64,000 nt of DNA. Origin: Gemmatimonas phototrophica. GTDB lineage: Bacteria; Latescibacterota; UBA2968; UBA8231. This document shows, piece by piece, positions 32,840 to 59,012 of this stretch. Within the stretch, counting starts at the first letter, position 1, and every line of letters begins with the position of its first letter. The position numbers were made by a program, and so were the translations under genes. The stretch spans positions 15,086 to 79,085 of the forward strand of contig CAMAVQ010000004.1 of NCBI GenBank assembly GCA_945861755.1. Direction: 5' to 3'. Below the pieces are notes generated by a model that was not told the DNA's origin, ran no database searches, and saw nothing but the letters and a program-made list of their open reading frames with translations.

Positions 32840-34981
32840 ATGTATACCTATCTGACCGCCGGCGGCGTTGAGATCACCTGCGCCGTCGAGGAGTTGCCCG
32901 TCGCCGGGGCCCTGGACCAAGTGCTGGCGCGGCTGGATGCCCACCGCGGCGCGGTGTTTGCCAGCGGCTACGAATATCCGGGGCGGTACAGCCGCTGGGA
33001 CATCGGCTTCGTCGATCCGCCGGTGGAGCTGGTGGCCCGCAGCCGCGACTTCACCGTGCGCGCCCTCAACGAGCGGGGCCGGCCCCTGCTGCAGATCTTC
33101 CGCCAAGGGCTGGAGGGCCATGCCCACCTCAGCGCCCTGGAGGGCAGCGGGGACGAGTTGCGCGGCCAGGTGGCGCCCATGCCCACCCACTTCCCCGAGG
33201 AGGAGCGCTCCAAGCAGCCCACCATCTTCAGCCTGCTGCGCGCCCTGGTCCAGCAGTTCGGCGCCCCCGGCGAGCCCCACCTGGGCTTCTACGGGGCCAT
33301 GGGCTACGACCTGGTCTTCCAATTCGAGCCCATAACCCTGCGCCACCGGCGCCCGGCCCAACACCCCGACCTGCACCTCTTTTTGCCCGACGAGCTGATC
33401 GTCGTCGACCATCGCAAGGAGCAGGCCCTCAGGTACCGCTACGATTTCCGCCTCGGCCAACGCTCCACCCACGGCGTGGCCGGCGGCGGCCAAACCATCC
33501 CGCCGGTAAAGGGTGCCCCTTCCTCCCTGACGAGCGACCATGCCCCCGGCGAGTACGCCGACAAGGTGCGCCGGATCATCGAGGGCACCGGCCGGGGCGA
33601 CTTCTTTGAGGTCGTGCCCAGCCAGGTGCTCAGCGCCGGTTTTGCCGGGGCGCCCAGCGAACTCTTCGCCAATATCCGCCGCACCAATCCCAGCCCGTAC
33701 GAGTTCCTCATCAACCTGGGCCATGAGCAACTGGTGGGCGCCTCGCCCGAGATGTTCGTGCGGGTCGAAGGCACCCAGGTGGAGACCTGCCCCATCGCCG
33801 GCACTATCCGGCGCGGAGCTTCACCCATCGAGGACGCCGACCAGATCCTGACCCTGCTCAACTCGCAGAAGGACGAGGCCGAGTTGACCATGTGTACCGA
33901 CGTGGACCGCAACGACAAGGCCCGCGTCTGCAAGGCCGGCAGTGTGCGGGTGCTGGGCCGCCGGCTGATCGAGACCTACTCGCGGCTCATCCACACCGTG
34001 GATCACGTGGTGGGCGAACTGCGGCCCGGCTTCGACGCCTTCGACGCGCTGCTCTCCCACCTGTGGGCCGTCACCCTGACCGGAGCGCCCAAGCCAGCGG
34101 CCATGCAGATGATCGAGACGCTGGAAAACTCGGCGCGGCGCTGGTACGGGGGCTGTGTGGGCATGTTGCGCTTCAACGGCGACATCAACACCGGCATCAC
34201 CATCCGCACCGTCCACCTGGAGGGGGGAGAGGCCAGGGTGCGGGTGGGGGCCACTATCCTCTGCGATTCAGATCCCGACGAGGAAGAGCGGGAATGCCGC
34301 ACCAAGGCCGAGGCCTTCACCAACGCGGTGCTGGGGGCCCCGCAGCGGCAGCAAAGTGCGGCTGTCCTGCGTGCCACCGGCACTGGCAAGAAGGTGCTCT
34401 TTGTCGACAACCGCGACTCCTTTGTGCACACCCTGGGGGATTATGTGCGCCAGACCGGGGCCCAGGTCACCACCCTGCGGGCCGGCTTTCCCTATCACCT
34501 GCTCGACGAGATGAAGCCCGACCTGGTCTTCATCTCCCCAGGGCCGGGCACCCCCGAGGAGTTCGGGGTGCCCGAGCTGGTGCGCCAGTGTGTGCAGCGC
34601 CGACTGCCGGTCTTTGGGGTGTGCCTGGGGCTGCAGGGCATGGTCGAGGCTTTTGGCGGCAAGCTGGGGGTACTGGGGTACCCCATGCACGGCAAGAGTT
34701 CGGTGGTCGAATGCTCAGGAGAGGGTTTTCTCGAAGGCTTCCCCGCCCGCTTCGTGGCTGGCCGCTACCACTCCCTCTTCGCCGTGCCCGAGGCCCTGCC
34801 CGCCTGCCTCAAGGTGCGGGCCCACACCGAGGAAGGGGTGATCATGGCCGTGGAGCACGAGAGCTATCCGGCGGCGGCGGTGCAGTTCCACCCCGAATCC
34901 ATCCTCACCCTCAAGGAGGACCTGGGCCTCCGGCTCATCTCTCGGGTGATGGAAAGACTGGCGAAGGGAGCGAAGGCATGA
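32840..34981 (+). CDS. trpE: Anthranilate synthase, fused component I + glutamine amidotransferase component II, TrpE(G)
   Basis: The N-terminal ~500 aa are a chorismate-binding enzyme (FEVVPSQ, GASPEMFV, DRNDKARV, LTGAPK, RWYGG). The C-terminal ~200 aa are GATase-1 (FVDNRDSFVHTL, FGVCLGLQ, VQFHPES). ATG 32840 follows GGGAGAGGA. Confidence 0.92.
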   Translation: MYTYLTAGGVEITCAVEELPVAGALDQVLARLDAHRGAVFASGYEYPGRYSRWDIGFVDPPVELVARSRDFTVRALNERGRPLLQIFRQGLEGHAHLSALEGSGDELRGQVAPMPTHFPEEERSKQPTIFSLLRALVQQFGAPGEPHLGFYGAMGYDLVFQFEPITLRHRRPAQHPDLHLFLPDELIVVDHRKEQALRYRYDFRLGQRSTHGVAGGGQTIPPVKGAPSSLTSDHAPGEYADKVRRIIEGTGRGDFFEVVPSQVLSAGFAGAPSELFANIRRTNPSPYEFLINLGHEQLVGASPEMFVRVEGTQVETCPIAGTIRRGASPIEDADQILTLLNSQKDEAELTMCTDVDRNDKARVCKAGSVRVLGRRLIETYSRLIHTVDHVVGELRPGFDAFDALLSHLWAVTLTGAPKPAAMQMIETLENSARRWYGGCVGMLRFNGDINTGITIRTVHLEGGEARVRVGATILCDSDPDEEERECRTKAEAFTNAVLGAPQRQQSAAVLRATGTGKKVLFVDNRDSFVHTLGDYVRQTGAQVTTLRAGFPYHLLDEMKPDLVFISPGPGTPEEFGVPELVRQCVQRRLPVFGVCLGLQGMVEAFGGKLGVLGYPMHGKSSVVECSGEGFLEGFPARFVAGRYHSLFAVPEALPACLKVRAHTEEGVIMAVEHESYPAAAVQFHPESILTLKEDLGLRLISRVMERLAKGAKA

Positions 34982-35163
34982 TCCGCGTCTACGGCCTGCG
35001 CGAAAAACTGAACCCCATCAAGAGCCGGCTCTCGGACCTCATCAACACCTGCATGGTCGAGGCGCTAAAGTTTCCCCCAAACAAAAGGGCGCATCGTTTC
35101 TTCCCGCTGGAACGCGAGGACCTCTACTACCCAGAGGGCCGCACCGACGCGTACACCGTGTAG
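34978..35163 (+). pseudogene. Truncated tautomerase-family (Tautomerase_2-like) gene fragment, 61 codons
   Basis: MIRVYGLREKLNPIKSRLSDLINTCMVEALKFPPNKRAHRFFPLEREDLYYPEGRTDAYTV-stop. From memory, full-length relatives are about 125-130 aa and continue after ...TDAYT. ATGA overlap with the trpE(G) stop. Confidence 0.5.
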
Positions 35164-35252: not shown

Positions 35253-36263
35253 ATGATCAAAGAAGCCATCCAGCAACTGATCGACCGGAAAAACCTCAGC
35301 CGCGAGACGGCCCGGCAGGTCATGGACCAGATCATGAGCGGCCAGACCACCGACGCCCAGATCGCCGGCTTCCTAGTGGCCCTGCGCTGCAAAGGCGAGA
35401 CCGCCGAGGAGATCGCCGGCTGCGCCGAAGCCATGCGCCAGAAGGCCACCCCCATCCACACCAGCCGCCAGCCCCTGATCGACACCTGCGGCACCGGCGG
35501 CGACGGGTCGGGCACCTTCAACATCTCCACCACTGTGGCCTTTGTGGCTGCCGGTGCCGGCCTAGGCGTGGCCAAACACGGCAACCGGGCCATGTCCAGC
35601 CAGTGCGGCTCGGCCGATGTACTCCAGGCCCTGGGCGTCAACGTGGAGATCAGCCCCGAGCAGGTGGGCGCCTGCCTCGACGAGGCCGGCATCGGCTTCC
35701 TCTTTGCCCCCAAATTGCACGGGGCGATGAAACACGCCATCGGCCCGCGCCGCGAGTTGGGCACCCGCACCGTCTTCAACGCCCTGGGGCCCCTGACCAA
35801 TCCAGCCGGAGCCCGCCGCCAGCTCATCGGCGTGTACAGCGGCAACCTCACCGAGAAGCTGGCCCAGGTGCTCAAGGCCCTGGGCTCGGAACGGGCCTTG
35901 GTGGTCCACGGCAGCGACGGCCTCGACGAACTCACCCTCACCGGCCCCTCCCAGGTAGCCGAGCTGAAGGAGGGCCAGGTCTCCACCTACGAGGTGCACC
36001 CCGAAGAATTCGGGCTCAAGACCGCCCCCGCCGCTGCCCTCAAGGGGGGCGACGCCCCGCACAACGCCCAGATTCTCAGCGCGGTGCTCAAGGGCGAGCA
36101 AGGGCCGCCGCGCGATATCGTGCTGCTCAATGCCGCTGCCGCCATCCTCGCCGGTGGCCTGGCCGCCGATCTGAACGAGGGTGTAGAACTGGCCCGTCAA
36201 TCCCTCGCCTCCGGCAAAGCCCTAGAGGCCCTGGAAAAGCTCAGGCAGGTGAGCAACCGGTGA
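35253..36263 (+). CDS. trpD: Anthranilate phosphoribosyltransferase
   Basis: 336 aa. DTCGTGGDG, FNISTT, KHGNRAMSS, GPLTNP. Confidence 0.93.
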   Translation: MIKEAIQQLIDRKNLSRETARQVMDQIMSGQTTDAQIAGFLVALRCKGETAEEIAGCAEAMRQKATPIHTSRQPLIDTCGTGGDGSGTFNISTTVAFVAAGAGLGVAKHGNRAMSSQCGSADVLQALGVNVEISPEQVGACLDEAGIGFLFAPKLHGAMKHAIGPRRELGTRTVFNALGPLTNPAGARRQLIGVYSGNLTEKLAQVLKALGSERALVVHGSDGLDELTLTGPSQVAELKEGQVSTYEVHPEEFGLKTAPAAALKGGDAPHNAQILSAVLKGEQGPPRDIVLLNAAAAILAGGLAADLNEGVELARQSLASGKALEALEKLRQVSNR

Positions 36264-37045
36264 ACGGCCGCGACATTCTCCAGGAGATCGCCACCTACAA
36301 ACGCGAGGTGGTGCAGCGCGACAAACACCTGCACTCCCTAGCCGACCTGCGCCACGCCGCTGCCGACGCCCCGCCCCCCCTCGACTTTGCCGACGCTCTG
36401 CGGGGGGAGGAAGTGGCACTGATCGCCGAAATCAAGAAAGCCTCCCCTTCCAAGGGCCTCATCCGCGCCGATTTCGACCCTGAGCGCATCGCCGCCACCT
36501 ATGCCGAGCAGGGGGCGCGGGCGCTTTCGGTGCTGACCGACGAGGCTTATTTTCAAGGGTGCAACGAGTACTTACAGGCGGCCCGCAGGGTAGCCGGGCT
36601 GCCGACACTGCGCAAGGACTTCACCCTGGACCCGTACCAGCTCTACCAAGCCCGGGTACTGGGCGCCGACGCAGTCTTATTGATCGTGGCATTGATGGAC
36701 GGCAGCCAGTTGGAGGACTTCCTCGGTCTGGCCGCCGAGTTGGCCCTGGCCGCCCTGGTGGAGGTACACACCCGCGCCGAGGCCGAGCGGGCCGTGCAGG
36801 CGGGCGCCGGGCTGGTGGGGGTCAACAACCGCGACCTCAAGACTTTCAAGACCACCCTGGACACCACCTTTGAACTCTTCCCCCTGCTTCCGGAGGGGTG
36901 CCTGAAAGTGAGCGAGAGCGGCATCAATACCCGCGCCGATGTGGAACGCCTGCAGGAAGCCGGCGCCGACGCCATCCTGGTGGGCGAAGCCCTGATGCGG
37001 GAGGCGGACATCGGCGCTAAAGTCAGAGAGCTGTTGGGACGATGA
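36260..37045 (+). CDS. trpC: Indole-3-glycerol-phosphate synthase
   Basis: GTG 36260 overlaps the trpD stop (GTGA). IAEIKKASPSKG, SVLTDEAYFQG, LRKDF, VEVH, GVNNRDL, SESGI. Confidence 0.9.
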   Translation: MNGRDILQEIATYKREVVQRDKHLHSLADLRHAAADAPPPLDFADALRGEEVALIAEIKKASPSKGLIRADFDPERIAATYAEQGARALSVLTDEAYFQGCNEYLQAARRVAGLPTLRKDFTLDPYQLYQARVLGADAVLLIVALMDGSQLEDFLGLAAELALAALVEVHTRAEAERAVQAGAGLVGVNNRDLKTFKTTLDTTFELFPLLPEGCLKVSESGINTRADVERLQEAGADAILVGEALMREADIGAKVRELLGR

Positions 37046-38025
37046 AAAAACGCGTTTTCTCGGGCATCAAACCTTCGGGCAGCCTGCACCTGGGCAACTA
37101 CCTGGGGGCTATCCGCAACTGGGTGGCCGACCAGCACCAATGCGAAAACATCTTCTGCGTAGTGGATCAGCACGCCCTCACCGTCGACTACGAGCCGGCT
37201 GCCCTGCGCCAGAACGTGCGCGAACTGGTGGGCCTGTACCTGGCCTGCGGCCTCGATCCCGCACAGTGCGCCCTCTTTGTGCAATCCCATGTGCCCGAGC
37301 ACACCGAGCTGGCCTGGCTCTTCAACTGTATCACCCCCATGGGCTGGCTGCAGCGCATGACCCAGTTCAAGGAAAAATCCGAGGACTTGCGCGAACAGGT
37401 CAGCGCCGGACTCTTCACCTATCCCACGCTGATGGCCGCCGACATCCTGCTCTACCAGACCCAGGAAGTGCCGGTGGGCGACGACCAGAAGCAGCATGTA
37501 GAACTGGCCCGCGACATTGCCCAGCGCTTCAACCATCTCTTCGGGGAGACCTTTGTGTTGCCCGAGCCGGTGATCCGCAAGGTGGCGGCGCGGGTGATGG
37601 GCCTGGACGATCCGAGCAAGAAGATGTCCAAGTCCACCACCAGCGACAGCCACGGCATCGGGCTGCTCGACCCGCCGGCCCTGATCCGCAAGAAGTTGAG
37701 CCGGGCCACCACCGACTCGCAGCGCGAGATTGTCTTCGACCGCGAGCGCCCCGGGGTCTTCAATCTGTTGACCATCTTTCAGGCCCTCTCCGGCCAGAGC
37801 CAGGAAGAGATCGCCGCCCACTTCGAAGACAAGGGCTACGCCCAGCTCAAGGGCGACCTGGCCGACCTGGTGGTCGCCACCCTCGAACCGATCCAGGCCC
37901 GCTATCGCCAGATCACCAGTGAACCCGAACAAATCGACCAGATCCTGGCCCAGGGCGTGACGCGGCTGCGCCCCCTGGTCGATGCCACCATGACCCGCGT
38001 GCGCCACGCCATGGGGCTGAGGTAG
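37042..38025 (+). CDS. trpS: Tryptophan--tRNA ligase
   Basis: 327 aa. FSGIKPSGSLHLGNYLG (HIGH-type) and KMSKS. ATGA overlap with trpC. Confidence 0.93.
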   Translation: MKKRVFSGIKPSGSLHLGNYLGAIRNWVADQHQCENIFCVVDQHALTVDYEPAALRQNVRELVGLYLACGLDPAQCALFVQSHVPEHTELAWLFNCITPMGWLQRMTQFKEKSEDLREQVSAGLFTYPTLMAADILLYQTQEVPVGDDQKQHVELARDIAQRFNHLFGETFVLPEPVIRKVAARVMGLDDPSKKMSKSTTSDSHGIGLLDPPALIRKKLSRATTDSQREIVFDRERPGVFNLLTIFQALSGQSQEEIAAHFEDKGYAQLKGDLADLVVATLEPIQARYRQITSEPEQIDQILAQGVTRLRPLVDATMTRVRHAMGLR

Positions 38026-38032
38026 GGCCGCC

Positions 38033-38296
38033 ATGGATCTGAGCGAATGGCGGGCCCGCATCGACGCGGTGGATCAGCAACTAGTGGACCTGCTCAACCA
38101 GCGCTTGCAGTACGTGCTGGAGATCGGCCGGCTCAAACGCGAGCACGGCCGGCCCGTCCAGGACCGCGAGCGGGAAAGAGCCATCCTCGAACGGCTCAGC
38201 GCCTACAACCAGGGACCGCTCAGCACCCAGGCCATCGAGGACCTCTTCAACCGCATTATGCAAGAAGCCCGCCACCTCGAAGAAGGGCAGGCATGA
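38033..38296 (+). CDS. Chorismate mutase, AroQ class (monofunctional)
   Basis: 87 aa. WRARIDAVDQQLVDLLNQRL...GRLK...VQDRERE pattern. Confidence 0.85.
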   Translation: MDLSEWRARIDAVDQQLVDLLNQRLQYVLEIGRLKREHGRPVQDRERERAILERLSAYNQGPLSTQAIEDLFNRIMQEARHLEEGQA

Positions 38297-38300
38297 CCTG

Positions 38301-39410
38301 TTGGAGGATCTAGTCTTCTTCAAGCGCATTGCCATCGTCGGGGTGGGGCTGATCGGCGGCTCCCTGGGCCTGGCCCTCAAGCGGCTGGGCCACCCGGCCC
38401 GCCTGGTGGGGGTCAGCCGGCCCGAGACCATCGCCCAGGCCCTGGAGCTGGGGGTCATCGATGAGGGCTTTGACTACCCCGATCTGGCCAAGGCCCTCGA
38501 CGGGGCCGACCTAGTCGTGCTGTGTACGCCCATCCAGCGCATCCTCTCCCTGTTAGAAGAAGTGGGCCGCTGCGCCGCCCCCGGTGCCCTGATCACCGAC
38601 GTGGGCAGCACCAAGCGCCGCATCGGGGCCCAGGCCGCCGCCCAGCTGCGCCCCGACCTTCACTTTGTGGGCGGCCATCCCATGGCCGGCTCCGAAAAGG
38701 CCGGGGTCAGCGCCGCCGATCCCTTCCTCTTTCAGAACGCCATCTACATCCTGGTGCCCGGCGGCGCAGTACCCGCGCCGCTCTACGGGGCCCTGGTGCA
38801 ATTGCTCAGGGAGGTGGGTGCCAAGGTGCTGGAACTCGACGCCGAAACCCACGACGAGGTGGTGGCCGCCATCAGCCACCTGCCGCAGATGATCGCCACT
38901 TCTCTAGTGGAAATGGTGGGCCGGCTCCACGAGGGAAAGGGCTATTTCCTCACCTTGGCCGCCGGCGGCTTCCGCGATTTGACCCGCATCGCCTCCAGCC
39001 CGTACGCCCCGGTGTGGCAGGACATCTGCCGCACCAACGAGGACCAGATCGGCCGCATGATCGACCAGTACATCGCCCTTCTTCAAGATATGCGCGGTCG
39101 TATTGCCGACCCGAGCCTGGGACAGGATTTCGCCTTTGCCAATCACACCCGCAACCGCATCCCGCGCGACGCCAAGGGTTTCATCCACACCCTCTCCGAG
39201 ATCCTGGTGGTGGCCGAGGACAAACCTGGAATCATCGGCCAGATCGCCCAGGCACTGGCGCACGAAAAAATCAACATCAACGACATCGAGGTGATGAAGG
39301 TGAGGGAAGGGGAGGGCGGCACCCTGCGCCTGGGATTCGACAGCCAGCCGGCCGCCGATCGCGCACTGGACGTGTTGGCCAGCCTGGGTTACCAGGCCAG
39401 GAGGCGCTAG
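38301..39410 (+). CDS. tyrA: Prephenate dehydrogenase with C-terminal ACT domain
   Basis: 369 aa, TTG start. IAIVGVGLIGGS, DVGSTK, GGHPMAGSE. ACT-like C-terminus ILVVAEDKPGIIGQIAQAL. Confidence 0.9.
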   Translation: MEDLVFFKRIAIVGVGLIGGSLGLALKRLGHPARLVGVSRPETIAQALELGVIDEGFDYPDLAKALDGADLVVLCTPIQRILSLLEEVGRCAAPGALITDVGSTKRRIGAQAAAQLRPDLHFVGGHPMAGSEKAGVSAADPFLFQNAIYILVPGGAVPAPLYGALVQLLREVGAKVLELDAETHDEVVAAISHLPQMIATSLVEMVGRLHEGKGYFLTLAAGGFRDLTRIASSPYAPVWQDICRTNEDQIGRMIDQYIALLQDMRGRIADPSLGQDFAFANHTRNRIPRDAKGFIHTLSEILVVAEDKPGIIGQIAQALAHEKININDIEVMKVREGEGGTLRLGFDSQPAADRALDVLASLGYQARRR

Positions 39411-40690
39411 TGGAACGCATTGTGCGCCCGGCGCGCAAGCTGGCCGGCGAAGCCACCGTCCCCGGCGAACTGGAGAGCGCCTCCCAGGCCCTGGTGCTGG
39501 CGGCCTTGGCCCAGGGCGAAAGTCGCATCCGCAATGCGCCCCTCTCCTGCCAGCGGCTGGTGGGGTTGCTGCGCGATCTGGGCATCGCCATCACCGAAGA
39601 GCCCGGAGTGCTGGTGGTCCAGGGACGGGGCCGGCTCGGCTTCAGCGCCCCTCGCGACACCGTGAACCTAGAAGGACTGGGCGAGGAAGCCCTATACTTG
39701 CTGGCCCTGCTCTGCGGCCAGGAGTTCAGCACCCGCGTGTATTTGGGCGAGGCCCAGGAAGAGGGCCGGCAGTTGCTAACCGCCCTCGCCCCGGCCGGGG
39801 TGGAGACCCGCAGCGAAACACAGCACCTGTGGCTGGTGGGCGGCGGGTCGCCCCTGCAACCCATCACCCATGCGGCCGCCGAACTGAGCGCCGGGATCAA
39901 AACGGCCCTCTTGGTGGCGGGCCTCTACGCCCAGGGCACCACGGTCCTGCGCGAATTGCTCAAGACCGGCGAACGGGCAGAGCGCCCCCTGCGCCAGTGG
40001 GGCGCCGAGGTGCTGCGCCGCCGGCAGGACAGCGAGGGCGAGTGGGCCCTCTCCATCGAAGGCGGGCAGGAGTTGCAGGCGCGGGAGCTGGAGATCGCCG
40101 GAGCCCCCCCCCTGGCTCTTCCTCTAGTAGTGGCGGCCCTGGGGCTGCGGCGTTCGGAGCTGCGCCTGCGGCGGCTGGCCCTGCGCCCGGGACGCCGCTT
40201 CTTTTTTGATCTGCTGCGCCAGCTGGGCGCCCCACTCACATTAGAAGAAAATGACGACGGCACCACCGACGTGCTGGTGCGCGCGGGCAAACTCAAACCC
40301 ACCCGCATCGCCGGACAGCGCGCCGAGAAATTACTCGACCAGGTGCCACTGCTGGCGGTGATGGCCACCCAGACCGAAGGGGAGTTTGTCATCCGCGACG
40401 TCGAGATGCTGCGCCAGGGCAAATCCGACTACCTGGCCCACCTGGTCCAACAGCTGCGCCTCATCGAGGCCAAGGTGGGCGAATTCCCCGAAGGCCTGGT
40501 CGTCGAGGGCGGGTACCCGCTCAAGGGCGCGGCCATCGATACCCGCGGGGATGCCGGCCTGTGTTTTGCCTTTGCCGTGGCCGGACTGTGGGCCGAGGGC
40601 GAGATGACCCTCTCTGACACCCGGGGCGTGGAGGAGGTCTTTCCGGCTTTCTTCCCGACCTTGGAAAAACTCCAGGAGCGCAAAAAATGA
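39410..40690 (+). CDS. EPSP-synthase (AroA) fold homolog lacking the canonical catalytic/substrate-binding motifs; probable pseudoenzyme or neofunctionalised paralog
   Basis: 426 aa. GTG 39410 overlaps the tyrA stop. It aligns along its full length with class II EPSPS, but the motifs are replaced: PGDKSISHR to PGELESASQ, GNAATGCR to EGLGEEAL, GDASLTKRPM to GEAQEEGRQL, TRDHTE to TGERAE, PGDPSS to AGAPPL, ELRVKESDR to EMLRQGKSDY, DHRIAM to GDAGLC. Confidence 0.75.
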   Translation: MERIVRPARKLAGEATVPGELESASQALVLAALAQGESRIRNAPLSCQRLVGLLRDLGIAITEEPGVLVVQGRGRLGFSAPRDTVNLEGLGEEALYLLALLCGQEFSTRVYLGEAQEEGRQLLTALAPAGVETRSETQHLWLVGGGSPLQPITHAAAELSAGIKTALLVAGLYAQGTTVLRELLKTGERAERPLRQWGAEVLRRRQDSEGEWALSIEGGQELQARELEIAGAPPLALPLVVAALGLRRSELRLRRLALRPGRRFFFDLLRQLGAPLTLEENDDGTTDVLVRAGKLKPTRIAGQRAEKLLDQVPLLAVMATQTEGEFVIRDVEMLRQGKSDYLAHLVQQLRLIEAKVGEFPEGLVVEGGYPLKGAAIDTRGDAGLCFAFAVAGLWAEGEMTLSDTRGVEEVFPAFFPTLEKLQERKK

Positions 40691-40827
40691 GGGGACTAAT
40701 TAAGCTGTGCGCGTTGGCCGCCGTGATTTTTGGCGGCGGAGTGGTGCTGATCCGCTGGCGCTACGGGGCCTCCTGGCGCGAGAGCTTGGGCATCGCCGAA
40801 CAATTCGTCGAGGATCTTTTGCCGTGA
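40687..40827 (+). CDS. 46-aa single-pass membrane micro-protein, translationally coupled between the aroA-like gene and aroE
   Basis: Not in the ORF track (under 60 aa). [50 protein letters not shown] overlap with the upstream stop (40687-40690) and GTGA overlap with the aroE start (40824-40827). Confidence 0.5.
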   Translation: MRGLIKLCALAAVIFGGGVVLIRWRYGASWRESLGIAEQFVEDLLP

Positions 40828-41690
40828 TCAGCGGCAAGACCCGGGTGCTAGGCGTCATCGGCCACCCGGTGGAGCACACCTCCTCGCCGGCCATGCACAA
40901 CGCCGCCCTGGCAGCCCTGGGGCTGGACTACGTGTACACCGCCTTTGCGGTGCGGCCCGAGAACCTGGGCCAGGCCATCGCCGGGATGCGCGCCCTGCAG
41001 ATTTGCGGCCTCAATGTGACCGTGCCGCACAAGGTGGGGGTGATGGCCCTGCTCGACGAGGTCTCCCCCGAGGCCCGGGCCATCGGTGCGGTGAACACCA
41101 TCGACCACCGCGAGGGCCGGCTGATCGGGCACAACACCGATGCCTACGGGATAATGCAGAGCCTGCGCCTGGACGGGGGCCTGGAAACCCTGCCCTCGCG
41201 GGTGGCACTGCTGGGGGCCGGCGGCGCAGCACGGGCCATCCTCTATGCTCTATTGCAGCGCCCCGAGGTGGAGCACATCGCCCTGTTCAACCGCACCCCA
41301 GAAAAAGCCGCGGCCCTGGCCGTTACCCTCGATCCAGAGTGCAAGCGGGTCCAGCCCGGAGTATTGGACGCGTCTTCCAGCGACCTGCTGCGCGATACCG
41401 GCCTGCTGATCAACGCCACGGCCATCGGCATGTATCCCCATCCCGACGCCTCGCCCCTGTTAGACCCCGCCTGCCTACACCCAGGCATGGTGGTGCTGGA
41501 CATCGTGTATAATCCGCTCGAAACCCTGCTTCTGCGCCAGGCCCGGCAGGCCGGTGCCCGCCCAGTGGATGGCCTGGGCATGCTGGCCCGGCAGGGGGCG
41601 CGGGCCTTTGCCATCTGGACCGGAGTAGAACCGCCGGTCGAGGTGATGCGGGCTGCGGCGCTAGAACGCCTCGCCAAAGCTGCCAGCTGA
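40824..41690 (+). CDS. aroE: Shikimate dehydrogenase
   Basis: GTG 40824 gives [45 protein letters not shown]. The upstream ATG in the track (40707) adds an Arg-rich extension that is unlikely to be coding. Confidence 0.9.
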
Positions 41691-41759: not shown

Positions 41760-42572
41760 ATGTACACCCTCGCCAACCACCAACTCACCGTCTCTGTCCT
41801 CGACCCTGTGGCCGACCAGGAACGCATGGGCCCCCGCTACTGCACCGGCGGGTACATCTTTCAGATCACCGACCACAAGCTGGGGGACCTACTCAGCGGC
41901 CCCACCTACCCGGACAGCTTCAATGTCTTCGACGGCCAGGGCATTCCCGATGCCTTCAACCTCAGCCCGCTGCGCGACAACTACTCGGCCGACCCCACCA
42001 GCCTGATCGTCGGCATCGGCCTCTGCGACCTGAAAGCCAACAAGGTGCTGGAGTTCTGCAAGTGGGAGGTGAGCCACCAGACCGACCAGGTGCGCATGGT
42101 CACCGAGCAGCGCTTCCAGAGCCACGCCCTGCGCCTGGAACGCACCCTCACCCTGATCGAGCGCACCGTGCGCTCCGAGATTCGGGTGGAGAATCTGGGC
42201 CAGGGATTCCTCAACCTGCGCTGGTTTCCCCATCCCTTCTACCCCCATCCCGAAACCGACGAACTCTTCCGGGTCAACTTCCCGGTGTCCTTTGCGGAAA
42301 GCCAGGGCTACACGCTGGCCCCCAACGGGTACATCTGCCGCAAAGGCCGGCCCTGGCCCGGAGACTCGGCCAAACTAGACCACGAAGGCGACACCAAGCT
42401 GGTGATCCAGCAGCGGCATCCCAAGTTGGGCATGGTGACCGCCACTTGCAGTTTTGCCCCCGACTTCTTCCTGATCTGGGGCAACCCCCGCACCTTCTCG
42501 TGGGAACCCTACCTGGAGCGCAGCCTGCTGGGCAGCCAGGAATACGCCTGGTCCATCGACTACGACTTCTGA
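41760..42572 (+). CDS. Conserved hypothetical protein (270 aa), family not recognised
   Basis: ORF with normal composition, preceded by GGAGA. No motif I can name. Confidence 0.6.
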
Positions 42573-42673: not shown

Positions 42674-44407
42674 ATGACCCTCCGCAACCTCTTGGAATCC
42701 CGGCTGGCCCAGGCCCTGCAAAAAGCCGGCGCCCCCGCTGACGCCCCGCCCATGCTGGGCCTGGCCACCCGGCCAGAATTCGGCGACTACCAGGGCAACG
42801 GGGTGATGGGGGCCGCCAAGAGAATGGGCCTCAAGCCGCGGCAGCTGGCCGAGCAGGTGGTGGCCGCCCTGGACCTGGGGGACATCGCCGAAAAGGTGGA
42901 GATCGCCGGCCCGGGTTTCATCAACATCACCCTGAAAAACGAATGGCTGGCCGCCCATCTGGGCCAGGTGCTGGCCGATGAACGCCTGGGCTTGGCTCCG
43001 GCGGCCTCGCCGCAGACCGTGGTGGTGGACTACTCGCATCCCAACCTTGCCAAGGAAATGCACGTCGGCCACCTGCGCAGCACCATCATCGGCGATGCCC
43101 TGGTCCGTATCCTCGAATTTCTCGGGCACCGGGTCATCCGCCACAACCATGTGGGCGACTGGGGCACTCAGTTCGGCATGCTCATCGCCTACCTGGACCA
43201 TCTGGAGCGCGAGGGCCAGGATCTGTCGGGGGAACTGGCCGACCTGGAGGCCTTCTACCGGGCGGCCAAGCAGCGCTTCGACGAGGACGAGGCCTTTGCC
43301 CGCCTCGCCCGGGAGTACGTGGTGCGGCTGCAGGGGGGCGATGCCCACTGCCGGCAGGTGTGGCAGCGTTTCATCGACGAGTCACTGCATCACTGCGAGC
43401 AGGTGTACGCGCGATTGGGCGTCACCCTGAAGCGCGAGGACGTGCGGCCCGAAAGTGCGTACAACGACGACCTAGCGCACGTAGTGGAAGACCTGGACAA
43501 AGCCGGACTGCTGCGCGAATCGCAGGGCGCCCAGTGTGTTTTTCTGGAAGAATTCAAGGACCACGAGGGAGAAATCGCTCCGGTGATCATCCAGAAATCC
43601 GACGGCGGTTACCTCTATGCCACCACCGACCTGGCCGCGGTGCGCTACCGGGCCGGGGAACTGAAGGCCGACCGCATCCTCTACATCGTCGACGCCCGCC
43701 AGGACCTGCACCTGCGCCAGGTCTTTGCCGTGGCCCGCGCCGCCGGCTTTGCCCCGGCCAGCTGCTCGCTGGAACACCATCCTTTTGGCACCATGATGGG
43801 CAAAGACGGCAAACCCTTCCGCACCCGGCAGGGCGGCACGGTCAAGCTGCTGGAGCTGCTGGACGAGGCCGAGGTGCGGGCGTTGGCGCTGGTCTCCGAG
43901 AAGAACCCCGAACTGCCCGAGGCAGAGCGCCGGCACATCGCCCAGGTGGCGGGCATCGGCAGCGTCAAATACGCCGACCTCTCGCTCAACCGCACCACGG
44001 ACTATATCTTCGATTGGGACCGGATGCTGGCCCTGGACGGCAACACCGCCCCCTACCTACAGTACTCCTACACGCGGGTGCAGAGCATTTTCCGCAAGAG
44101 TGGCATAGAAAGCCTCGGGACCCAGCCGGGCCTGCACCTGACCGAAGTGGCCGAACGCAACCTGGCCCTCAGGCTGGCCCAGTTCGCCGAGACGGTGGAG
44201 AGTGTGGCCAGGGAGTGTTATCCCAACATCCTCTGCGCCTATCTCTACAACCTGGCTGAGATCTTCATGCGCTTCTACGAATCCTGCCCGGTGCTCAAGG
44301 CCGAGGAGCCCACCCGCAGCAGCCGGCTCCTGCTCTGCCAGGGCACCGCCCGCACCATCCGCACCGGCCTGGGCCTCTTGGGCATCGAGACCATCGAGCG
44401 GATGTAG
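42674..44407 (+). CDS. argS: Arginine--tRNA ligase
   Basis: ATG 42674 ([11 protein letters not shown]). [20 protein letters not shown] (HIGH), and the DALR anticodon-binding C-terminus ending ...ETIERM. Confidence 0.92.
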
Positions 44408-44434: not shown

Positions 44435-44602
44435 ATGACGCAGAAAAAAATGCGCTGCGACACCTGCGGCAAGGAGACCAAGCAACTGCGGCGAGACGTG
44501 GTGGACGAGGGATACAACGCGCTGAACAAACCGCCGCTGTGGAACTGCGAACAGTGTTACGCGCAGAAGCGCGCCAAGCGGCAGGAGCCCCCGTCGCGGT
44601 GA
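44435..44602 (+). CDS. 55-aa CxxC...CxxC zinc-ribbon micro-protein
   Basis: Not in the ORF track. MTQKKMRCDTCGKETKQLRRDVVDEGYNALNKPPLWNCEQCYAQKRAKRQEPPSR. GAGGGAAAG lies upstream. The stop overlaps the aroK GTG (GTGA). Confidence 0.55.
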   Translation: MTQKKMRCDTCGKETKQLRRDVVDEGYNALNKPPLWNCEQCYAQKRAKRQEPPSR

Positions 44603-45147
44603 AAGGCCCAGTCTTTCTCACTGGCTTCATGGGCACCGGCAAGACCAAGATCGGCCGGCTCCTGGCCCAGCGCCTGGGCCGCGTCTTCGTCGACACCGAC
44701 CACCTGATCGAGGAGCAGGCCGGCCTGAGCATCCCCCAGATCTTCGCCACCCAGGGGGAGGGGCCGTTCCGCCAGCTCGAGCACCAGTGCCTGGCCGAGG
44801 CGGCTGCCCGCCCCGACGCGGTGATCGCCCTGGGCGGGGGTGCCATCGCCCAAGAGCGCAACTGGGAAGTACTCGGCCGGGCCGGGGGCGTGGTGGTCTG
44901 CCTGCAGGCCTCGGTGGATACCATCCTCGAACGAGTCGGCCGCAAGGAGGATCGGCCCCTGCTGGCCGGCCTGAGCCCCCAGGAGAAACGCGCCAAAGTC
45001 GAGCGCCTGCTGGCCGAGCGCGCCCCCTTCTACAACCGGGCGGATATCCAGTTCCACACCAGCGACGAGGTGGACCCCGAAACCACCGCCGACCGCCTGG
45101 CCCAAACTCTGGAGCAGTGGCATGCAGACCATAGCCGTAGCCCTTGA
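44599..45147 (+). CDS. aroK: Shikimate kinase
   Basis: VKGPVFLTGFMGTGKTKIG (Walker A), VDTDHLIE, LGGGA. Confidence 0.9.
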   Translation: MKGPVFLTGFMGTGKTKIGRLLAQRLGRVFVDTDHLIEEQAGLSIPQIFATQGEGPFRQLEHQCLAEAAARPDAVIALGGGAIAQERNWEVLGRAGGVVVCLQASVDTILERVGRKEDRPLLAGLSPQEKRAKVERLLAERAPFYNRADIQFHTSDEVDPETTADRLAQTLEQWHADHSRSP

Positions 45148-46219
45148 ACCCCATGCCTACGCCATCCACGTGGGGCACGGCGTCTTATCGCGCCTGGGAG
45201 AATTGTGCCGGGCTGCGGGCCTGGGCCGGCAGGTGGCGCTGATCACCGACCACACCGTGGCCGGCCTGCACCTGGCTCCGGCCGCCGCCAGCTTGCGGGA
45301 GGCCGGCTTCGAGGTCACCGAAGTGCGCTTTGCCGGCACCGACGCCGCCAAAAACCTGCGCACTGCCGAGGAGGTCTTCGGGCAACTGATCCAGGCCGGC
45401 CTGGATCGCAAGGCCTGGGTGCTGGCCCTGGGCGGAGGCGTGGTGGGGGATCTGGCCGGCTTTGTGGCCGCCACCTTTCTGCGCGGCATCCCCTTTGTCC
45501 AGGTGCCCACCACTATCGTCTCGCAGGTGGACGCCAGCATCGGCGGCAAGACCGGGGTCAACCACGCCCTGGGCAAGAACATGATCGGCGCCTTTCACCA
45601 GCCCCGCCTGGTGTGCATCGACACGGCGCTCTTACACACCCTGCCGCGCCGCGAGCTGGTGGCCGGTATGGCCGAGGTGGTCAAACACGCCGTGATCCGC
45701 GACCCGGAACTCTTCGCCTTCCTGGAGCGCCATATCGAGCAGGTGGTCGGGCTGGAACTCGAGCCCGACGAGCTGGACTGGCTCATCGCCGGCAATGCGC
45801 GCATCAAGGCCGAGGTGGTGGCTGCCGACGAAAAGGAGGGTGAGCTGCGGGCTATTCTCAACTACGGCCACACCATCGGCCACGCCATCGAATCGGCCAG
45901 CCAGTACGGGTACCTGCACGGGGAGGCGGTGATCCTGGGCATGGTCGGAGCCGGCGAACTGGCGGTGCAGCGCGATATGTGGACCGAGGCCGAGCGAGAG
46001 CGCCAGGACCTGCTGCTGGCACGGCTGGGCATACCCTCTGGCCTGTCGCAGCTCTCCGCTGACCTTATCGTCGAGCGCACCCGCGCCGACAAGAAGCGCC
46101 TGGAAGGCCGGCACCGCTTTGTCCTGGCCCGCCGCATCGGCCAGGTGGAAATCGTCGACGGGGTCAGCGATGCACAGGTGCGCGCCGCTGTCGAATACGT
46201 GCAAACCCGGCACCCCTAA
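45122..46219 (+). CDS. aroB: 3-dehydroquinate synthase
   Basis: 365 aa. GGGVVGDLAGF, VPTT...QVDASIGGKTGVN, GKNMIGAFHQP, LNYGHTIGHAIE, HGEAV. Confidence 0.93.
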   Translation: MQTIAVALEPHAYAIHVGHGVLSRLGELCRAAGLGRQVALITDHTVAGLHLAPAAASLREAGFEVTEVRFAGTDAAKNLRTAEEVFGQLIQAGLDRKAWVLALGGGVVGDLAGFVAATFLRGIPFVQVPTTIVSQVDASIGGKTGVNHALGKNMIGAFHQPRLVCIDTALLHTLPRRELVAGMAEVVKHAVIRDPELFAFLERHIEQVVGLELEPDELDWLIAGNARIKAEVVAADEKEGELRAILNYGHTIGHAIESASQYGYLHGEAVILGMVGAGELAVQRDMWTEAERERQDLLLARLGIPSGLSQLSADLIVERTRADKKRLEGRHRFVLARRIGQVEIVDGVSDAQVRAAVEYVQTRHP

Positions 46220-46237: not shown

Positions 46238-46660
46238 ATGACCGAGATGGACGAGGAAGACCGCTTCAAAACCGCGTACGAATGCTTTGTCGAGGAATTG
46301 GACACCATCATCGGCAAAGAAGCGGTACTCAAATACCTGCAACTCGACCTGACCCCCGACGTCTTTGTCGACGCCGATGTGTGCGAAATGGCGCTGGTCG
46401 CCGCCGAGTTGCTGCTGCGCGCTGGGGGCGAAGGCATCGGCGAGATTCCCGAAGAGGCCGAGCAGGCCGCGCGCAACTGGAAATTCTCCTACGCCCCCGC
46501 AGACTACCTGGCCGCGGCGAGAACCGTGGTCAAGTTGGGCCAGGCCGGTTCGGAGCTGGATCTGGCCATGGAAGCCGATGGGGAAGAAGGGTACCAGGCC
46601 TGGAAGGATTACCTCGATGAGCTGGGCGGAGCATTAACCGCCAGAGCCGGCGGCCGCTGA
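46238..46660 (+). CDS. Acidic hypothetical protein (140 aa)
   Basis: ORF with coherent composition, 18 nt after aroB. Family not recognised. Confidence 0.55.
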   Translation: MTEMDEEDRFKTAYECFVEELDTIIGKEAVLKYLQLDLTPDVFVDADVCEMALVAAELLLRAGGEGIGEIPEEAEQAARNWKFSYAPADYLAAARTVVKLGQAGSELDLAMEADGEEGYQAWKDYLDELGGALTARAGGR

Positions 46661-56079: not shown

Positions 56080-56670
56080 CTAGAGGACGCCCTTGGTCGA
56101 GGGCACGCCCTGCTCCCCCGGCCGCTGGGCCACGGCCTGGGCCAGGGCGCGACCGCAGGCTTTGAAGAGGGCCTCGATGCCGTGGTGGTCATCGCTGCCG
56201 CGCAACAGATCCAGATGCAGATTCATGCGGGCCTGGTCGGCCAGGGCGCGCATAAACTCGCGCACCAGGCCCACCGGCAGGCCGCCCACTTGCGGGCCGT
56301 GGAAAGCCGCCTGCAGCACCAGGTACGGCCGGCCCGACAAATCGATCACCGCCCGGGCCAGGGCCTCGTCCATGGGCACATAGCTGTGGCCGAAGCGCTG
56401 GATGCCGGCCTTGTCGCCCAGGGCCAGGGCGATGGCCTGCCCCAGGCAGATGCCCACGTCTTCCACGGTGTGGTGGGGGTCCACGTGTAAGTCGCCGCGG
56501 CATTTGAGTTTTAGGTCGAAGAGCCCGTGGCGGGCAAAGGCGGTGAGCATGTGATCGAAGAAGCCGATGCCCGTATCGATCTGAAGCTGCCCGCTTCCGT
56601 CCAGGCCCAACTCCACTTCGATGTCGGTCTCGCTGGTCCGGCGCTGTACGCGGCCGATGCGCTGGCTCAT
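56080..56670 (-). CDS. hisB: Imidazoleglycerol-phosphate dehydratase
   Basis: 196 aa. RTSETDI, GIGFFDHML, DLHVDPHHTVEDVGI, HHGIEALFKA. Confidence 0.93.
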   Translation of the reverse strand: MSQRIGRVQRRTSETDIEVELGLDGSGQLQIDTGIGFFDHMLTAFARHGLFDLKLKCRGDLHVDPHHTVEDVGICLGQAIALALGDKAGIQRFGHSYVPMDEALARAVIDLSGRPYLVLQAAFHGPQVGGLPVGLVREFMRALADQARMNLHLDLLRGSDDHHGIEALFKACGRALAQAVAQRPGEQGVPSTKGVL

Positions 56671-57980
56671 GGCTTGCTCCTGTAATCTTCTAGGCGGAGG
56701 CGCACGGCCTCGGCGTGGGCGGCAAACCCCTCAGCCTCAGCCAGGCGGATGATCTGCTCGCCCACCTTGGCCAGCCGGGCCGGGGTGTAGGCGACAATAC
56801 TGGTGGTCTTGAGGAAATCCCCCACTCCCAGCGAAGAGGCAAAGCGGGCCGCCCCGTTGGTGGGCAACACGTGGTTGGTGCCGGCAAAGTAGTCGCCCAC
56901 CGGCTCAGTAGAAGCCGACCCTAGGAAGAGGGCGCCGGCGTTTTTGACCTGGTCCACCCAGCTCCAGGGGTCCTGCACCAGCAATTCGGCGTGTTCGGGG
57001 GCCAGCCGGTTGAGCAGTTCGATGCCGGTCTGCAGATTGGGCACCACCACCAGGGCCCCAAAGTTTTCCAGCGCCTTCCCGGCGGCCTCGGCGCGGGGCA
57101 GGCGGGTCAACTGCTCTTCCACCGCCTGCTGCACCTGGGCAGCCAGCGCTGCCGAAGGCGTGATACAGACCACGGCCTCGAAACCGCTGCCATGTTCGGC
57201 CTGAGAGAGCAGGTCGGCGGCCACATAACGCGGGTCGGCCTGCGCATCGGCCAGCACCACTAGCTCCGAGGGGCCGGGGATCATCTCGATGCCCACCACC
57301 CCGTACACTTGTTGCTTAGCCGCCACCGTGTACAGACTGCCCGGCCCGACGATCTTGTGCACGCCTTTGACGGTGGCCGTGCCAAAGGCCATGGCCCCCA
57401 CCGCCTGCGCCCCACCCAGGCCGTAGACCTCGGTGAGGCCCAGCAGCTGCGCCGTGGCCAGGATGGTGGGATGGGGCCGGCCATCGGCCTGCGGGGGAGA
57501 GACCACACACAACTCCGGCACGCCGGCCACCTGGGCGGGGATAGCCGCCATCAGCAGGCTGGAGAAGAGCGGCGCCTGGCCACCGGGCACACAAATGCCC
57601 ACCCGGCCGATGGGCAACACCTTCTTGCCCAGGATCACCCCGTCGCCGTCCTCCATGAACCACGAGTTGAGCCGCTGCCGCTCGTGGAAGGCGCGGATAT
57701 TGGCCGCTGCTGCCTCGATGGCCTGCCGCAGCTCCGGGTCCAGCGCCGCCAGTGCCGCTGCCAACGCCGCCGCTGGCACGCGGAATTGCTCGGGCCGCAA
57801 CCGCACCCGGTCGAACTTCTCGGTGAACTCGGCCAGGGCCTCGTCCCCGCGTGTGCGTACCGCTGCCAACACCTGGCGCACTGCCTGTTCGACCTCGGCG
57901 GGCACGCCGCCGCTGCGGTCGAGGATGGCCTGGAGTTTGGCCGGCAGGGGCGTGGCCGGGTAGGAGAGGATCTCGATCAA
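56667..57980 (-). CDS. hisD: Histidinol dehydrogenase
   Basis: 437 aa. PGGQAPLFSSLLM, IVGPGSLYTVAAK, GPSE, SQAEHG, GDYFAGTNHVLPT. Confidence 0.93.
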   Translation of the reverse strand: MIEILSYPATPLPAKLQAILDRSGGVPAEVEQAVRQVLAAVRTRGDEALAEFTEKFDRVRLRPEQFRVPAAALAAALAALDPELRQAIEAAAANIRAFHERQRLNSWFMEDGDGVILGKKVLPIGRVGICVPGGQAPLFSSLLMAAIPAQVAGVPELCVVSPPQADGRPHPTILATAQLLGLTEVYGLGGAQAVGAMAFGTATVKGVHKIVGPGSLYTVAAKQQVYGVVGIEMIPGPSELVVLADAQADPRYVAADLLSQAEHGSGFEAVVCITPSAALAAQVQQAVEEQLTRLPRAEAAGKALENFGALVVVPNLQTGIELLNRLAPEHAELLVQDPWSWVDQVKNAGALFLGSASTEPVGDYFAGTNHVLPTNGAARFASSLGVGDFLKTTSIVAYTPARLAKVGEQIIRLAEAEGFAAHAEAVRLRLEDYRSKP

Positions 57981-57982
57981 GG

Positions 57983-58861: not shown

Positions 58862-59012
58862 GACATCACTTCTGCGAGAGGGGGGCGTCGATTGAAAAGA
58901 GTCTCTAAAGATAAAGAACCTCACTGGTTTCCGTCCATTTCGGCCTCGCGACTAACTCAATGTGCCAAGACGTCTTTCCTGGTCGCCGTAGCTGCCAGTA
59001 CGAGTTCGACGC

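What the first reader, a model, noticed from the sequence alone, without database searches (positions are those of the whole stretch)
39410..40690. EPSP-synthase homolog in the aroA slot has lost nearly every catalytic motif
The 426-aa product aligns end to end with class II EPSP synthases and keeps the structural segments (LVLAALAQGESRI, SAGIKTALLVAGL, VPLLAVMATQTEG, FAFAVAGL, FPAFF). The residues that bind shikimate-3-phosphate and PEP are replaced: PGDKSISHR to PGELESASQ, GNA(A/G)T..R to EGLGEEAL, GDASL.KRPM to GEAQEEGRQL, RDHTE to GERAE, PGDPS to AGAPP, ELRVKESDR to EMLRQGKSDY, DHRIAM to GDAGLC. All neighbouring pathway enzymes (trpD, trpC, tyrA, aroE, aroK, aroB) keep their motifs. The ORF is intact and translationally coupled on both sides, so it is probably expressed. 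It may be a pseudoenzyme or regulatory subunit, or an enolpyruvyl-transferase-fold protein with a new function.
Basis: partly seen in the sequence, partly recalled or inferred. Interest (0 to 1): 0.7.

Follow-up and report, generated by a model that had tools for sequence, protein, structure and literature searches.

The report
Catalytically dead EPSP synthase, conserved
The gene sitting where aroA belongs in this Latescibacterota aromatic amino acid operon encodes a well-folded EPSP synthase look-alike that has lost its whole substrate-binding site, yet has been kept under selection across a deep bacterial lineage, always followed by a tiny conserved membrane peptide.

Summary
Window 39410-40690 (+) encodes a 426-aa protein that matches EPSP synthase end to end: Pfam PF00275, AlphaFold pLDDT 93.5, and TM 0.84 to unliganded Coxiella AroA. 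It lacks essentially every S3P/PEP-binding residue and scores 164 bits against the 287-bit aroA equivalog cut-off.

It is not a pseudogene. Intact orthologues lie in the same slot (tyrA-X-46aa-aroE) in 26 GTDB species genomes, mostly Ca. Latescibacterota, and in many metagenomes. dN/dS is 0.21-0.28.

The former catalytic positions are more variable than the average site. Only nine residues are specific to the clade, and none suggests a new active site.

A related genome carries a canonical aroA in the identical slot. So this is a degenerated positional orthologue.

It also follows the canonical aroA of related lineages.

Best reading: a non-catalytic pseudoenzyme kept for a structural or scaffolding role, with EPSP made elsewhere. 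Whether these genomes hold another EPSP synthase could not be settled. No close canonical copy lies on the same chromosomes.

The parts
39410..40690 (+). psAroA: a degenerate EPSP synthase homologue (426 aa) with the full EPSPS fold and no S3P/PEP-binding residues
40687..40827 (+). pep46: a conserved 46-aa peptide with a predicted TM helix (residues 2-26), a turn, and an acidic amphipathic helix (30-44). It overlaps the psAroA stop (ATGA) and the aroE start (GTGA).
38301..39410 (+). tyrA (prephenate dehydrogenase with an ACT domain). Its stop overlaps the psAroA start (TAGTG).
40824..41690 (+). aroE (shikimate dehydrogenase); passes the equivalog cut-offs
38033..38296 (+). AroQ-type chorismate mutase (87 aa)
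32840..34981 (+). fused anthranilate synthase TrpE-TrpG; first gene of the conserved operon
35253..36263 (+). trpD
36260..37045 (+). trpC
37042..38025 (+). trpS (tryptophanyl-tRNA synthetase), embedded in the operon
42674..44407 (+). argS, a conserved member of the operon
44435..44602 (+). 55-aa Cys-rich ORF (CxxC...CxxC) in the position where a related genome with canonical aroA carries aroC
44629..45147 (+). aroK (shikimate kinase)
45122..46219 (+). aroB (3-dehydroquinate synthase)

Best explanation
The ORF encodes a pseudoenzyme. It descends in place from the aroA of an ancestral trp/aro operon and keeps the two-domain EPSP synthase fold. It can no longer bind shikimate-3-phosphate or PEP, so it does not make EPSP.

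It is translated as part of the operon and has been kept by purifying selection for a non-catalytic job. The most likely job is structural: a scaffold or assembly partner, working with the conserved 46-aa membrane hairpin peptide encoded immediately downstream. That peptide already accompanied the canonical AroA of this lineage. The pair may organise or tether aromatic-pathway enzymes.

The EPSP synthase step would then be supplied by a different gene elsewhere in the genome.

**Shown:** fold, loss of residues, selection, positional orthology, and peptide linkage.

**Inferred:** lack of activity, physical interaction with the peptide, the scaffold role, and the existence of a replacement EPSPS.
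For: **Fold kept.** PF00275 matches full length. AlphaFold pLDDT is 93.5 and pTM 0.88. Foldseek top hits are all EPSPS, with TM 0.84 to unliganded Coxiella AroA 3roi.

**Residues lost.** K22, S23, R27, N94, T97, R100, S169, Q171, K340, E341, R344, H385 and R386 (E. coli numbering) are replaced, and the R124 loop is shortened, in all 62 clade members. They are kept in all canonical comparators. TIGR01356 scores 164 against a cut-off of 287.

**Former active site unconstrained.** Mean entropy at these positions is 2.24 bits against 1.59 overall; only 6 of 10,000 random position sets are as variable. The same positions score 0.16 bits in canonical enzymes. Constraint has shifted to the C-terminal domain (1.31 against 1.86 bits).

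**No new conserved polar cluster.** Only nine residues are clade-specific.

**Functional gene.**
- 26 of 26 GTDB loci carry intact ORFs.
- dN/dS is 0.21-0.28.
- The operon is identical in all loci.
- A Shine-Dalgarno sequence and overlapping start/stop codons are present.

**Positional orthology.** L041 has tyrA ... canonical aroA, a 48-aa peptide, aroE, argS, aroC, aroK.

**Peptide.** It follows psAroA in the 26 GTDB loci and in the two further loci checked (L006, L010). It follows the other degenerate type in marine contigs, and it follows canonical aroA in L040, L041 and L050. It evolves more slowly than psAroA and is predicted as a helical hairpin.
Against: - No biochemical data exist. Loss of activity is inferred from residues alone.
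- No second, canonical EPSPS was found for any genome that carries psAroA. None of the 120 closest relatives of the Latescibacteria-type canonical AroA lies on a contig whose length matches a psAroA contig, including complete chromosomes.
- aroK, trpE and chorismate mutase remain under selection, so the pathway still needs EPSP from somewhere.
- The interaction with the peptide is inferred from gene linkage only.
- psAroA is the fastest-evolving gene of the operon, which fits a weakly constrained role.
Confidence: 0.5

Rival explanations
1. It is a metabolite-sensing regulatory subunit. The EPSPS fold has been re-used to bind a pathway intermediate or end product and to modulate TyrA, AroE or another pathway enzyme. 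HisZ, a dead HisRS paralogue, regulates HisG in this way.
For: It is co-transcribed and translationally coupled with tyrA and aroE. Purifying selection acts on it. Pseudoenzymes often become allosteric partners (general knowledge).
Against: The inter-domain cleft positions are more variable than the rest of the protein, so there is no conserved ligand site there. The nine clade-specific residues form no obvious pocket.
Confidence: 0.13
2. It is a relic kept only for operon architecture. The reading frame is maintained because translation through it is needed to express pep46 and aroE by coupling, and the protein itself is useless.
For: Start and stop codons overlap on both sides, and this is conserved in most loci. 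It evolves about twice as fast as its neighbours.
Against: dN/dS of 0.21-0.28 is far from neutral. The full-length fold is predicted with pLDDT 93.5 from an alignment that spans 39-100% identity. Length is kept at about 423-432 aa with no truncations in 26 species. A coupling spacer would tolerate deletions and would lose foldability.
Confidence: 0.1
3. It is an enzyme with a new activity on the enolpyruvyl-transferase fold.
For: The fold is intact and under selection. Other family members (MurA, NikO) use other acceptors (general knowledge).
Against: The PEP-binding residues shared by the family (K22, R124, R344/R386 equivalents, D313) are lost and variable. No alternative conserved polar constellation exists. 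The MurA models score 44 bits or less against cut-offs of 297 or more.
Confidence: 0.07
4. It is still the organism's EPSP synthase and uses a radically different set of residues, possibly together with pep46.
For: It is the positional orthologue of aroA. No other close AroA was detected on the same chromosomes. The rest of the pathway is kept under selection.
Against: Every residue known to contact S3P or PEP is lost, and the positions are not even conserved within the clade. An enzyme needs some conserved substrate-binding residues. The N-terminal domain, which carries most S3P contacts, is the least conserved part.
Confidence: 0.05

Closest known systems
Class II EPSP synthase (AroA; e.g. 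Coxiella burnetii 3roi/3slh, Agrobacterium CP4 2gg4)
   Same: Same length, the same two-domain inside-out alpha/beta-barrel fold, an end-to-end alignment at 25-31% identity, and the same operon position after tyrA.
   Different: All S3P/PEP/glyphosate-contacting residues are replaced, and the R124 loop is shortened by three residues. The score is below the aroA equivalog cut-off.
Latescibacteria-type canonical AroA (P0103, P0261, P0268, P0273, P0280)
   Same: These are the nearest canonical relatives (best canonical score to the clade profile, 319 bits). They share lineage motifs (LLAVAATQ, GExVIRD, AKVGExPDG). Some are followed by the same small peptide, and P0280 sits in the identical operon slot.
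   Different: They keep the complete catalytic motif set (P0268/P0273 have R100K and Q171T). Some lie outside the operon, next to uvrC or to pyruvate kinase.
Bifunctional TyrA-AroA (NCBIfam PRK14806, Pseudomonas type)
   Same: The same tyrA-aroA adjacency. This is the top NCBIfam hit for the AroA half (174.7 bits).
   Different: Here the two are separate genes, the score is far below the 902-bit cut-off, and the AroA part has no catalytic residues.
HisZ and other metabolic pseudoenzymes (from general knowledge)
   Same: A catalytically dead homologue of an enzyme kept under selection inside a biosynthetic operon. This is the suggested way it works.
   Different: HisZ is a paralogue that coexists with the active HisRS and has a demonstrated regulatory partner. 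Here no partner is demonstrated, and the protein appears to be the orthologue, not a paralogue.
EPSPS domain of the fungal AROM complex (6hqv)
   Same: An EPSPS fold embedded in a multi-enzyme shikimate assembly. It is a structural match at TMq 0.73.
   Different: The AROM EPSPS domain is catalytically active and covalently fused. Here the protein is free-standing and degenerate.

Membership tests
EPSP synthase (EC 2.5.1.19; TIGR01356 aroA equivalog) | EPSP_synthase fold/domain over the full length (PF00275) | tested here: met
   146.6 bits against a cut-off of 22.8, model positions 2-417 of 417. The AlphaFold model matches EPSPS structures.
EPSP synthase (EC 2.5.1.19; TIGR01356 aroA equivalog) | Score at or above the curated equivalog cut-off | tested here: not met
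   164.1 bits against a cut-off of 287.25. NCBI names clade members 'hypothetical protein'.
EPSP synthase (EC 2.5.1.19; TIGR01356 aroA equivalog) | S3P-binding residues (K22, S23, R27, S169, S170, Q171, N336, K340; E. coli numbering) | tested here: not met
   These are replaced and variable in all 62 clade members.
EPSP synthase (EC 2.5.1.19; TIGR01356 aroA equivalog) | PEP/phosphate-binding and catalytic residues (R124, D313, E341, R344, H385, R386, K411, and the G96 loop) | tested here: not met
   The R124 loop is shortened. E341, R344, H385 and R386 are replaced. The D313 position is variable.
EPSP synthase (EC 2.5.1.19; TIGR01356 aroA equivalog) | Genomic context with shikimate/aromatic genes | tested here: met
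   tyrA-X-pep46-aroE-argS-aroK-aroB is conserved in the 26 GTDB loci and in L006 and L010. A canonical aroA occupies the same slot in L041.
EPSP synthase (EC 2.5.1.19; TIGR01356 aroA equivalog) | Catalyses S3P + PEP -> EPSP + Pi | not testable with these tools
   Needs an enzyme assay or complementation of an aroA mutant.
MurA (UDP-GlcNAc enolpyruvyl transferase) | Score at or above the MurA equivalog cut-offs | tested here: not met
   TIGR01072 scores 43.8 against 392.7, and PRK09369 scores 44.2 against 297, with only partial stretches matched.
Pseudoenzyme (operational definition) | Clear homologue of an enzyme, with the fold kept | tested here: met
Pseudoenzyme (operational definition) | Catalytic and substrate-binding residues lost | tested here: met
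Pseudoenzyme (operational definition) | Maintained by purifying selection (not a pseudogene) | tested here: met
   dN/dS is 0.21-0.28 in three close pairs. ORFs are intact in 26 species that span 39-89% identity.
Pseudoenzyme (operational definition) | Demonstrated absence of the ancestral activity, and the protein is expressed | not testable with these tools
   Requires biochemistry and proteomics.

The most novel reading that the evidence does not exclude
A deep lineage (Latescibacterota and related marine clades) has no conventional EPSP synthase at all. In that case one of two things holds. Either the degenerate AroA, together with the conserved 46-aa membrane peptide, makes EPSP with an unrecognisable active site. 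Or a non-homologous, undiscovered enzyme (or a bypass of the EPSP and chorismate synthase steps, since aroC is also missing from these operons) supplies chorismate to the retained trpE, chorismate mutase and tyrA.
Probability: 0.15. Interest if true: 0.9.

Novelty: new variant of a known kind. Interest (0 to 1): 0.6.

Why it matters
EPSP synthase is the glyphosate target and one of the best-studied enzymes, and its active-site residues are treated as universal. I found no report of a conserved, catalytically dead EPSPS in the paper library.

**Annotation.** JGI annotation labels clade members '3-phosphoshikimate 1-carboxyvinyltransferase'. Pathway reconstructions and glyphosate-sensitivity predictions for Latescibacterota and their relatives therefore count an enzyme that is almost certainly inactive.

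**Biology.** This is a clean natural case of an orthologue turning into a pseudoenzyme in place. A graded series of intermediates exists in related lineages: partly degenerate Zixibacteria forms, and P0146- and P0158-type forms. It also exposes a previously unnoticed micropeptide, genetically locked to aroA, that may explain why the dead enzyme is kept.

**The open stake.** If no replacement EPSPS exists in the closed genomes, this points to an unknown route to chorismate.

Tried and rejected
**Second aroA in the window.** tblastn with seven canonical AroAs found only the one locus. Pfam annotation of the rest of the window found no other aro genes.

**Second aroA in the same genomes.**
- The single genome-contig scan went to the degenerate family, so whole chromosomes could not be scanned.
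- Instead I compared contig lengths as fingerprints between psAroA hits and the 120 best relatives of the Latescibacteria-type canonical AroA. There was no match.
- This excludes only canonical copies at least about 51% identical to P0103.
- The same test on the peptide family found one peptide per large contig.
- Cluster look-ups of the top canonical representatives gave nothing.

**'Gained' motifs as a new site.** The first list of clade-specific conserved residues mostly turned out to be lineage features shared with the nearest canonical AroAs. I dropped the idea of a new basic patch.

**Other dead ends.**
- Cluster names for clade members returned no names.
- Looking up the exact product of window 19581-20489 found no record.
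- Rfam found no RNA elements in the window.
- Pfam and NCBIfam gave no significant hit for pep46, the 61-aa ORF, the 55-aa ORF, or the 270-aa and 140-aa ORFs.
- Literature searches on Latescibacteria with shikimate or chorismate, on EPSPS pseudoenzymes and on EPSPS classes found nothing relevant. The 2015 WS3 paper only says most amino acid pathways are present.

**Single or multiple degeneration.** The NJ tree groups all strongly degenerate forms (90 of 100 bootstraps), but long-branch attraction cannot be excluded. psAroA is closer to canonical L041 AroA (37%) than to the marine degenerate type (29-31%).

**Caveat.** All conclusions also rest on database canonical sequences and the PDB alignment.
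Full report
**What is there**

The ORF at window 39410-40690 (+) is real.
- Its GTG start overlaps the TAG stop of tyrA (TAGTG), and AGGAGG lies just upstream.
- Its TGA stop overlaps an ATG. That ATG does not start aroE. It starts a 46-aa ORF (40687-40827), whose own stop overlaps the GTG of aroE (GTGA).
- The 426-aa product matches Pfam EPSP_synthase over the whole model (146.6 bits).
- It matches class II AroA structures end to end (Coxiella 3roi, 163.7 bits).
- It reaches only 164.1 bits against the 287.25-bit cut-off of the aroA equivalog TIGR01356, and 44 bits or less against the MurA models.

**The losses are real and apply to the whole clade**

A search of 5.8 billion proteins returned 65 clusters at 39-100% identity that all share the losses. 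After these there is a score gap, and then canonical enzymes that keep every motif.

In E. coli numbering, K22, S23, R27, N94, T97, R100, S169, Q171, K340, E341, R344, H385 and R386 are replaced, and the R124 loop is three residues shorter.

The positions are not replaced by a new conserved set.
- Their mean entropy within the clade is 2.24 bits, against 1.59 for all positions. Only 6 of 10,000 random position sets are as variable.
- The same positions score 0.16 bits in canonical enzymes.
- Constraint has moved to the C-terminal domain (1.31 against 1.86 bits), whereas canonical enzymes are even across both domains.

**It is a working gene, not a pseudogene**
- A scan of one genome per GTDB species found it in 26 species. 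Most are labelled Ca. Latescibacterota, and four are closed chromosomes.
- All 26 ORFs are intact.
- The gene order trpEG-trpD-trpC-trpS-CM-tyrA-X-pep46-aroE-argS-aroK-aroB-rimO is the same everywhere.
- Pairwise dN/dS against three close relatives is 0.21-0.28. Neighbouring genes give 0.10-0.30.
- It is nevertheless the fastest-evolving gene in the operon: 40-55% identity where neighbours keep 51-75%.
- AlphaFold2 with a 30-sequence alignment gives pLDDT 93.5 and pTM 0.88.
- Foldseek returns only EPSPS and MurA structures. The best is the unliganded, open Coxiella enzyme (TM 0.84), against 0.67-0.70 for the liganded, closed forms.

**Where it came from**

An exhaustive profile search of 1.84 billion representatives showed that the best-scoring canonical relative is P0103. 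Its cluster and relatives are annotated as Latescibacteria AroA.

One relative, P0280, lies on a 2.03-Mb contig in the order tyrA ... aroA, 48-aa peptide, aroE ... argS, aroC, aroK. The slot, the small peptide and the flanks are all the same, but the motif set is fully canonical. The degenerate protein is therefore the positional orthologue of aroA.

Other canonical relatives sit outside the operon:
- next to uvrC, again followed by the peptide (L040);
- next to pyruvate kinase, without the peptide (L042, L075).

The same search exposed further degenerate or half-degenerate forms.
- P0146-type proteins occupy the same slot, with the peptide, in marine metagenome contigs (L055-L067).
- A P0158-type protein occupies the slot without the peptide (L044).
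- Zixibacteria proteins have lost only some residues (P0102).

A neighbour-joining tree places all strongly degenerate forms together (90 of 100 bootstraps), next to the Latescibacteria-type canonical clade. Long-branch attraction is possible, so I cannot tell whether degeneration happened once or several times.

**No sign of a new active site**

My first list of 'gained' conserved residues mostly dissolved when the nearest canonical relatives were added. LLAVLATQ, GExVIRD, LKxTR and AKVGE are lineage features shared with active enzymes.

Only nine residues are specific to the clade: E20, A24, P44, L235, R304, F326, G337, L345 and E361. These are conservative or hydrophobic changes and do not form a catalytic constellation.

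**The peptide**

The 46-aa ORF is present after psAroA in the 26 GTDB loci and in the two further loci checked (L006, L010).
- It is nearly always exactly 46 aa.
- It is more conserved than psAroA.
- Its dN/dS is 0.10-0.20.
- Its family has 191 clusters and none carries an annotation. It has no Pfam match.
- It is predicted as a helical hairpin: a hydrophobic helix at 2-26, a turn, and an acidic amphipathic helix at 30-44 (SWRESLEIADQFVEDLL) (pLDDT 93).
- It also follows canonical aroA in L040, L041 and L050, so the aroA-peptide pairing is older than the loss of catalysis.

**Mechanism proposed**

I propose a non-catalytic EPSPS-fold protein that was retained because AroA in this lineage already had a second, structural role tied to the membrane peptide. 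That role may be a scaffold or tether for the aromatic pathway. It outlived the transfer of catalysis to another gene.

The steps shown are the fold, the loss of residues, selection, orthology and genetic linkage. The steps inferred are inactivity, physical interaction, and the existence of a replacement enzyme.

**The main gap**

I could not scan the closed chromosomes for another EPSPS.
- Indirectly, none of the 120 closest relatives of the Latescibacteria-type canonical AroA (at least 51% identity to P0103) lies on a contig whose length matches any psAroA contig.
- Each large contig shows only one peptide gene.
- So there is no close canonical paralogue. A distant, horizontally acquired aroA is not excluded and is what I expect.
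- In the related genome, aroC sits between argS and aroK. It is missing from that position in every degenerate operon whose locus covers it, and no aroC, DAHP synthase or dehydroquinase lies within 10 kb.
- The last two steps to chorismate therefore appear to have left the operon together.
- The retained aroK, trpE, chorismate mutase and tyrA are under selection and mostly pass curated cut-offs. This argues that chorismate is still made.

**Known or new**

The paper library holds nothing on a dead EPSPS, on Latescibacteria shikimate genes, or on this peptide.

I rate it a new variant of a known kind: a pseudoenzyme, here derived from EPSPS. Interest is 0.6. There is a 15% chance of the far more interesting case that these bacteria have no conventional EPSPS.

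Noticed in passing
window 40687-40827 (+); also L006-L010, L014-L039, L040 11471-11611, L041 11305-11451, L055-L067: A conserved 46-aa (rarely 48-aa) helical-hairpin membrane peptide, MRGLxRLxxLxAVLFGGGVVLIRLLYxVSWRESLEIADQFVEDLL, lies immediately after aroA in this lineage, whether AroA is canonical or degenerate. It has no Pfam family and 191 protein clusters.
   Followed up: yes
window 44435-44602 (+): A 55-aa Cys-rich ORF (CDTC...CEQC, zinc-ribbon-like) lies between argS and aroK. It is conserved as a 55-66-aa ORF in other psAroA operons. A related genome with canonical aroA has chorismate synthase (aroC) at this position (L041).
   Followed up: partly
L055-L067, L044; proteins P0100, P0102, P0105, P0109, P0122, P0146, P0154, P0158, P0215: Other lineages carry independently recognisable degenerate or half-degenerate AroA homologues in the same tyrA-X-aroE slot. 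These include marine contigs and Zixibacteria; P0102 has K22R, R27Q, R100Y, Q171L and R386L. Together they suggest a graded series of decay.
   Followed up: partly
L042 10001-12772, L075 6751-9535, L045: The canonical AroA of some 'Latescibacteria' MAGs is a stand-alone gene directly upstream of pyruvate kinase (ApbE-SecDF-PBP1A | aroA-pyk). It carries R100K and Q171T substitutions.
   Followed up: partly
window 41760-42572 (+) and 46238-46660 (+): A 270-aa ORF and an acidic 140-aa ORF, neither with a Pfam or NCBIfam match, are inserted into the operon (aroE|argS and aroB|rimO). They occur only in the window's close relatives (L014, L016, L038).
   Followed up: partly
window 34978-35163 (+): A 61-aa ORF follows the fused trpE-trpG, overlaps its stop, and has no family match. 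In more distant psAroA genomes this position holds a separate 187-aa trpG.
   Followed up: no
window 37042-38025 and 42674-44407: Two aminoacyl-tRNA synthetase genes (trpS, argS) are fixed members of the aromatic biosynthesis operon across the whole lineage. argS comes in two very different versions (about 35% or about 70% identity to the window's).
   Followed up: no
record titles (L015, L020, L023, L024, L026, L029, L036, L037): Several MAGs with this Latescibacterota-type operon are deposited as Gemmatimonadetes, Handelsmanbacteria or Planctomycetota. Their submitter taxonomy is probably wrong or outdated.
   Followed up: no
window 56080-58924 (-): A hisG-hisD-hisB cluster lies on the minus strand downstream. 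Polysaccharide and glycosyltransferase genes and a large PQQ-beta-propeller/transglutaminase protein (59013-61949) flank it. The left third of the window holds several response-regulator and histidine-kinase genes.
   Followed up: no
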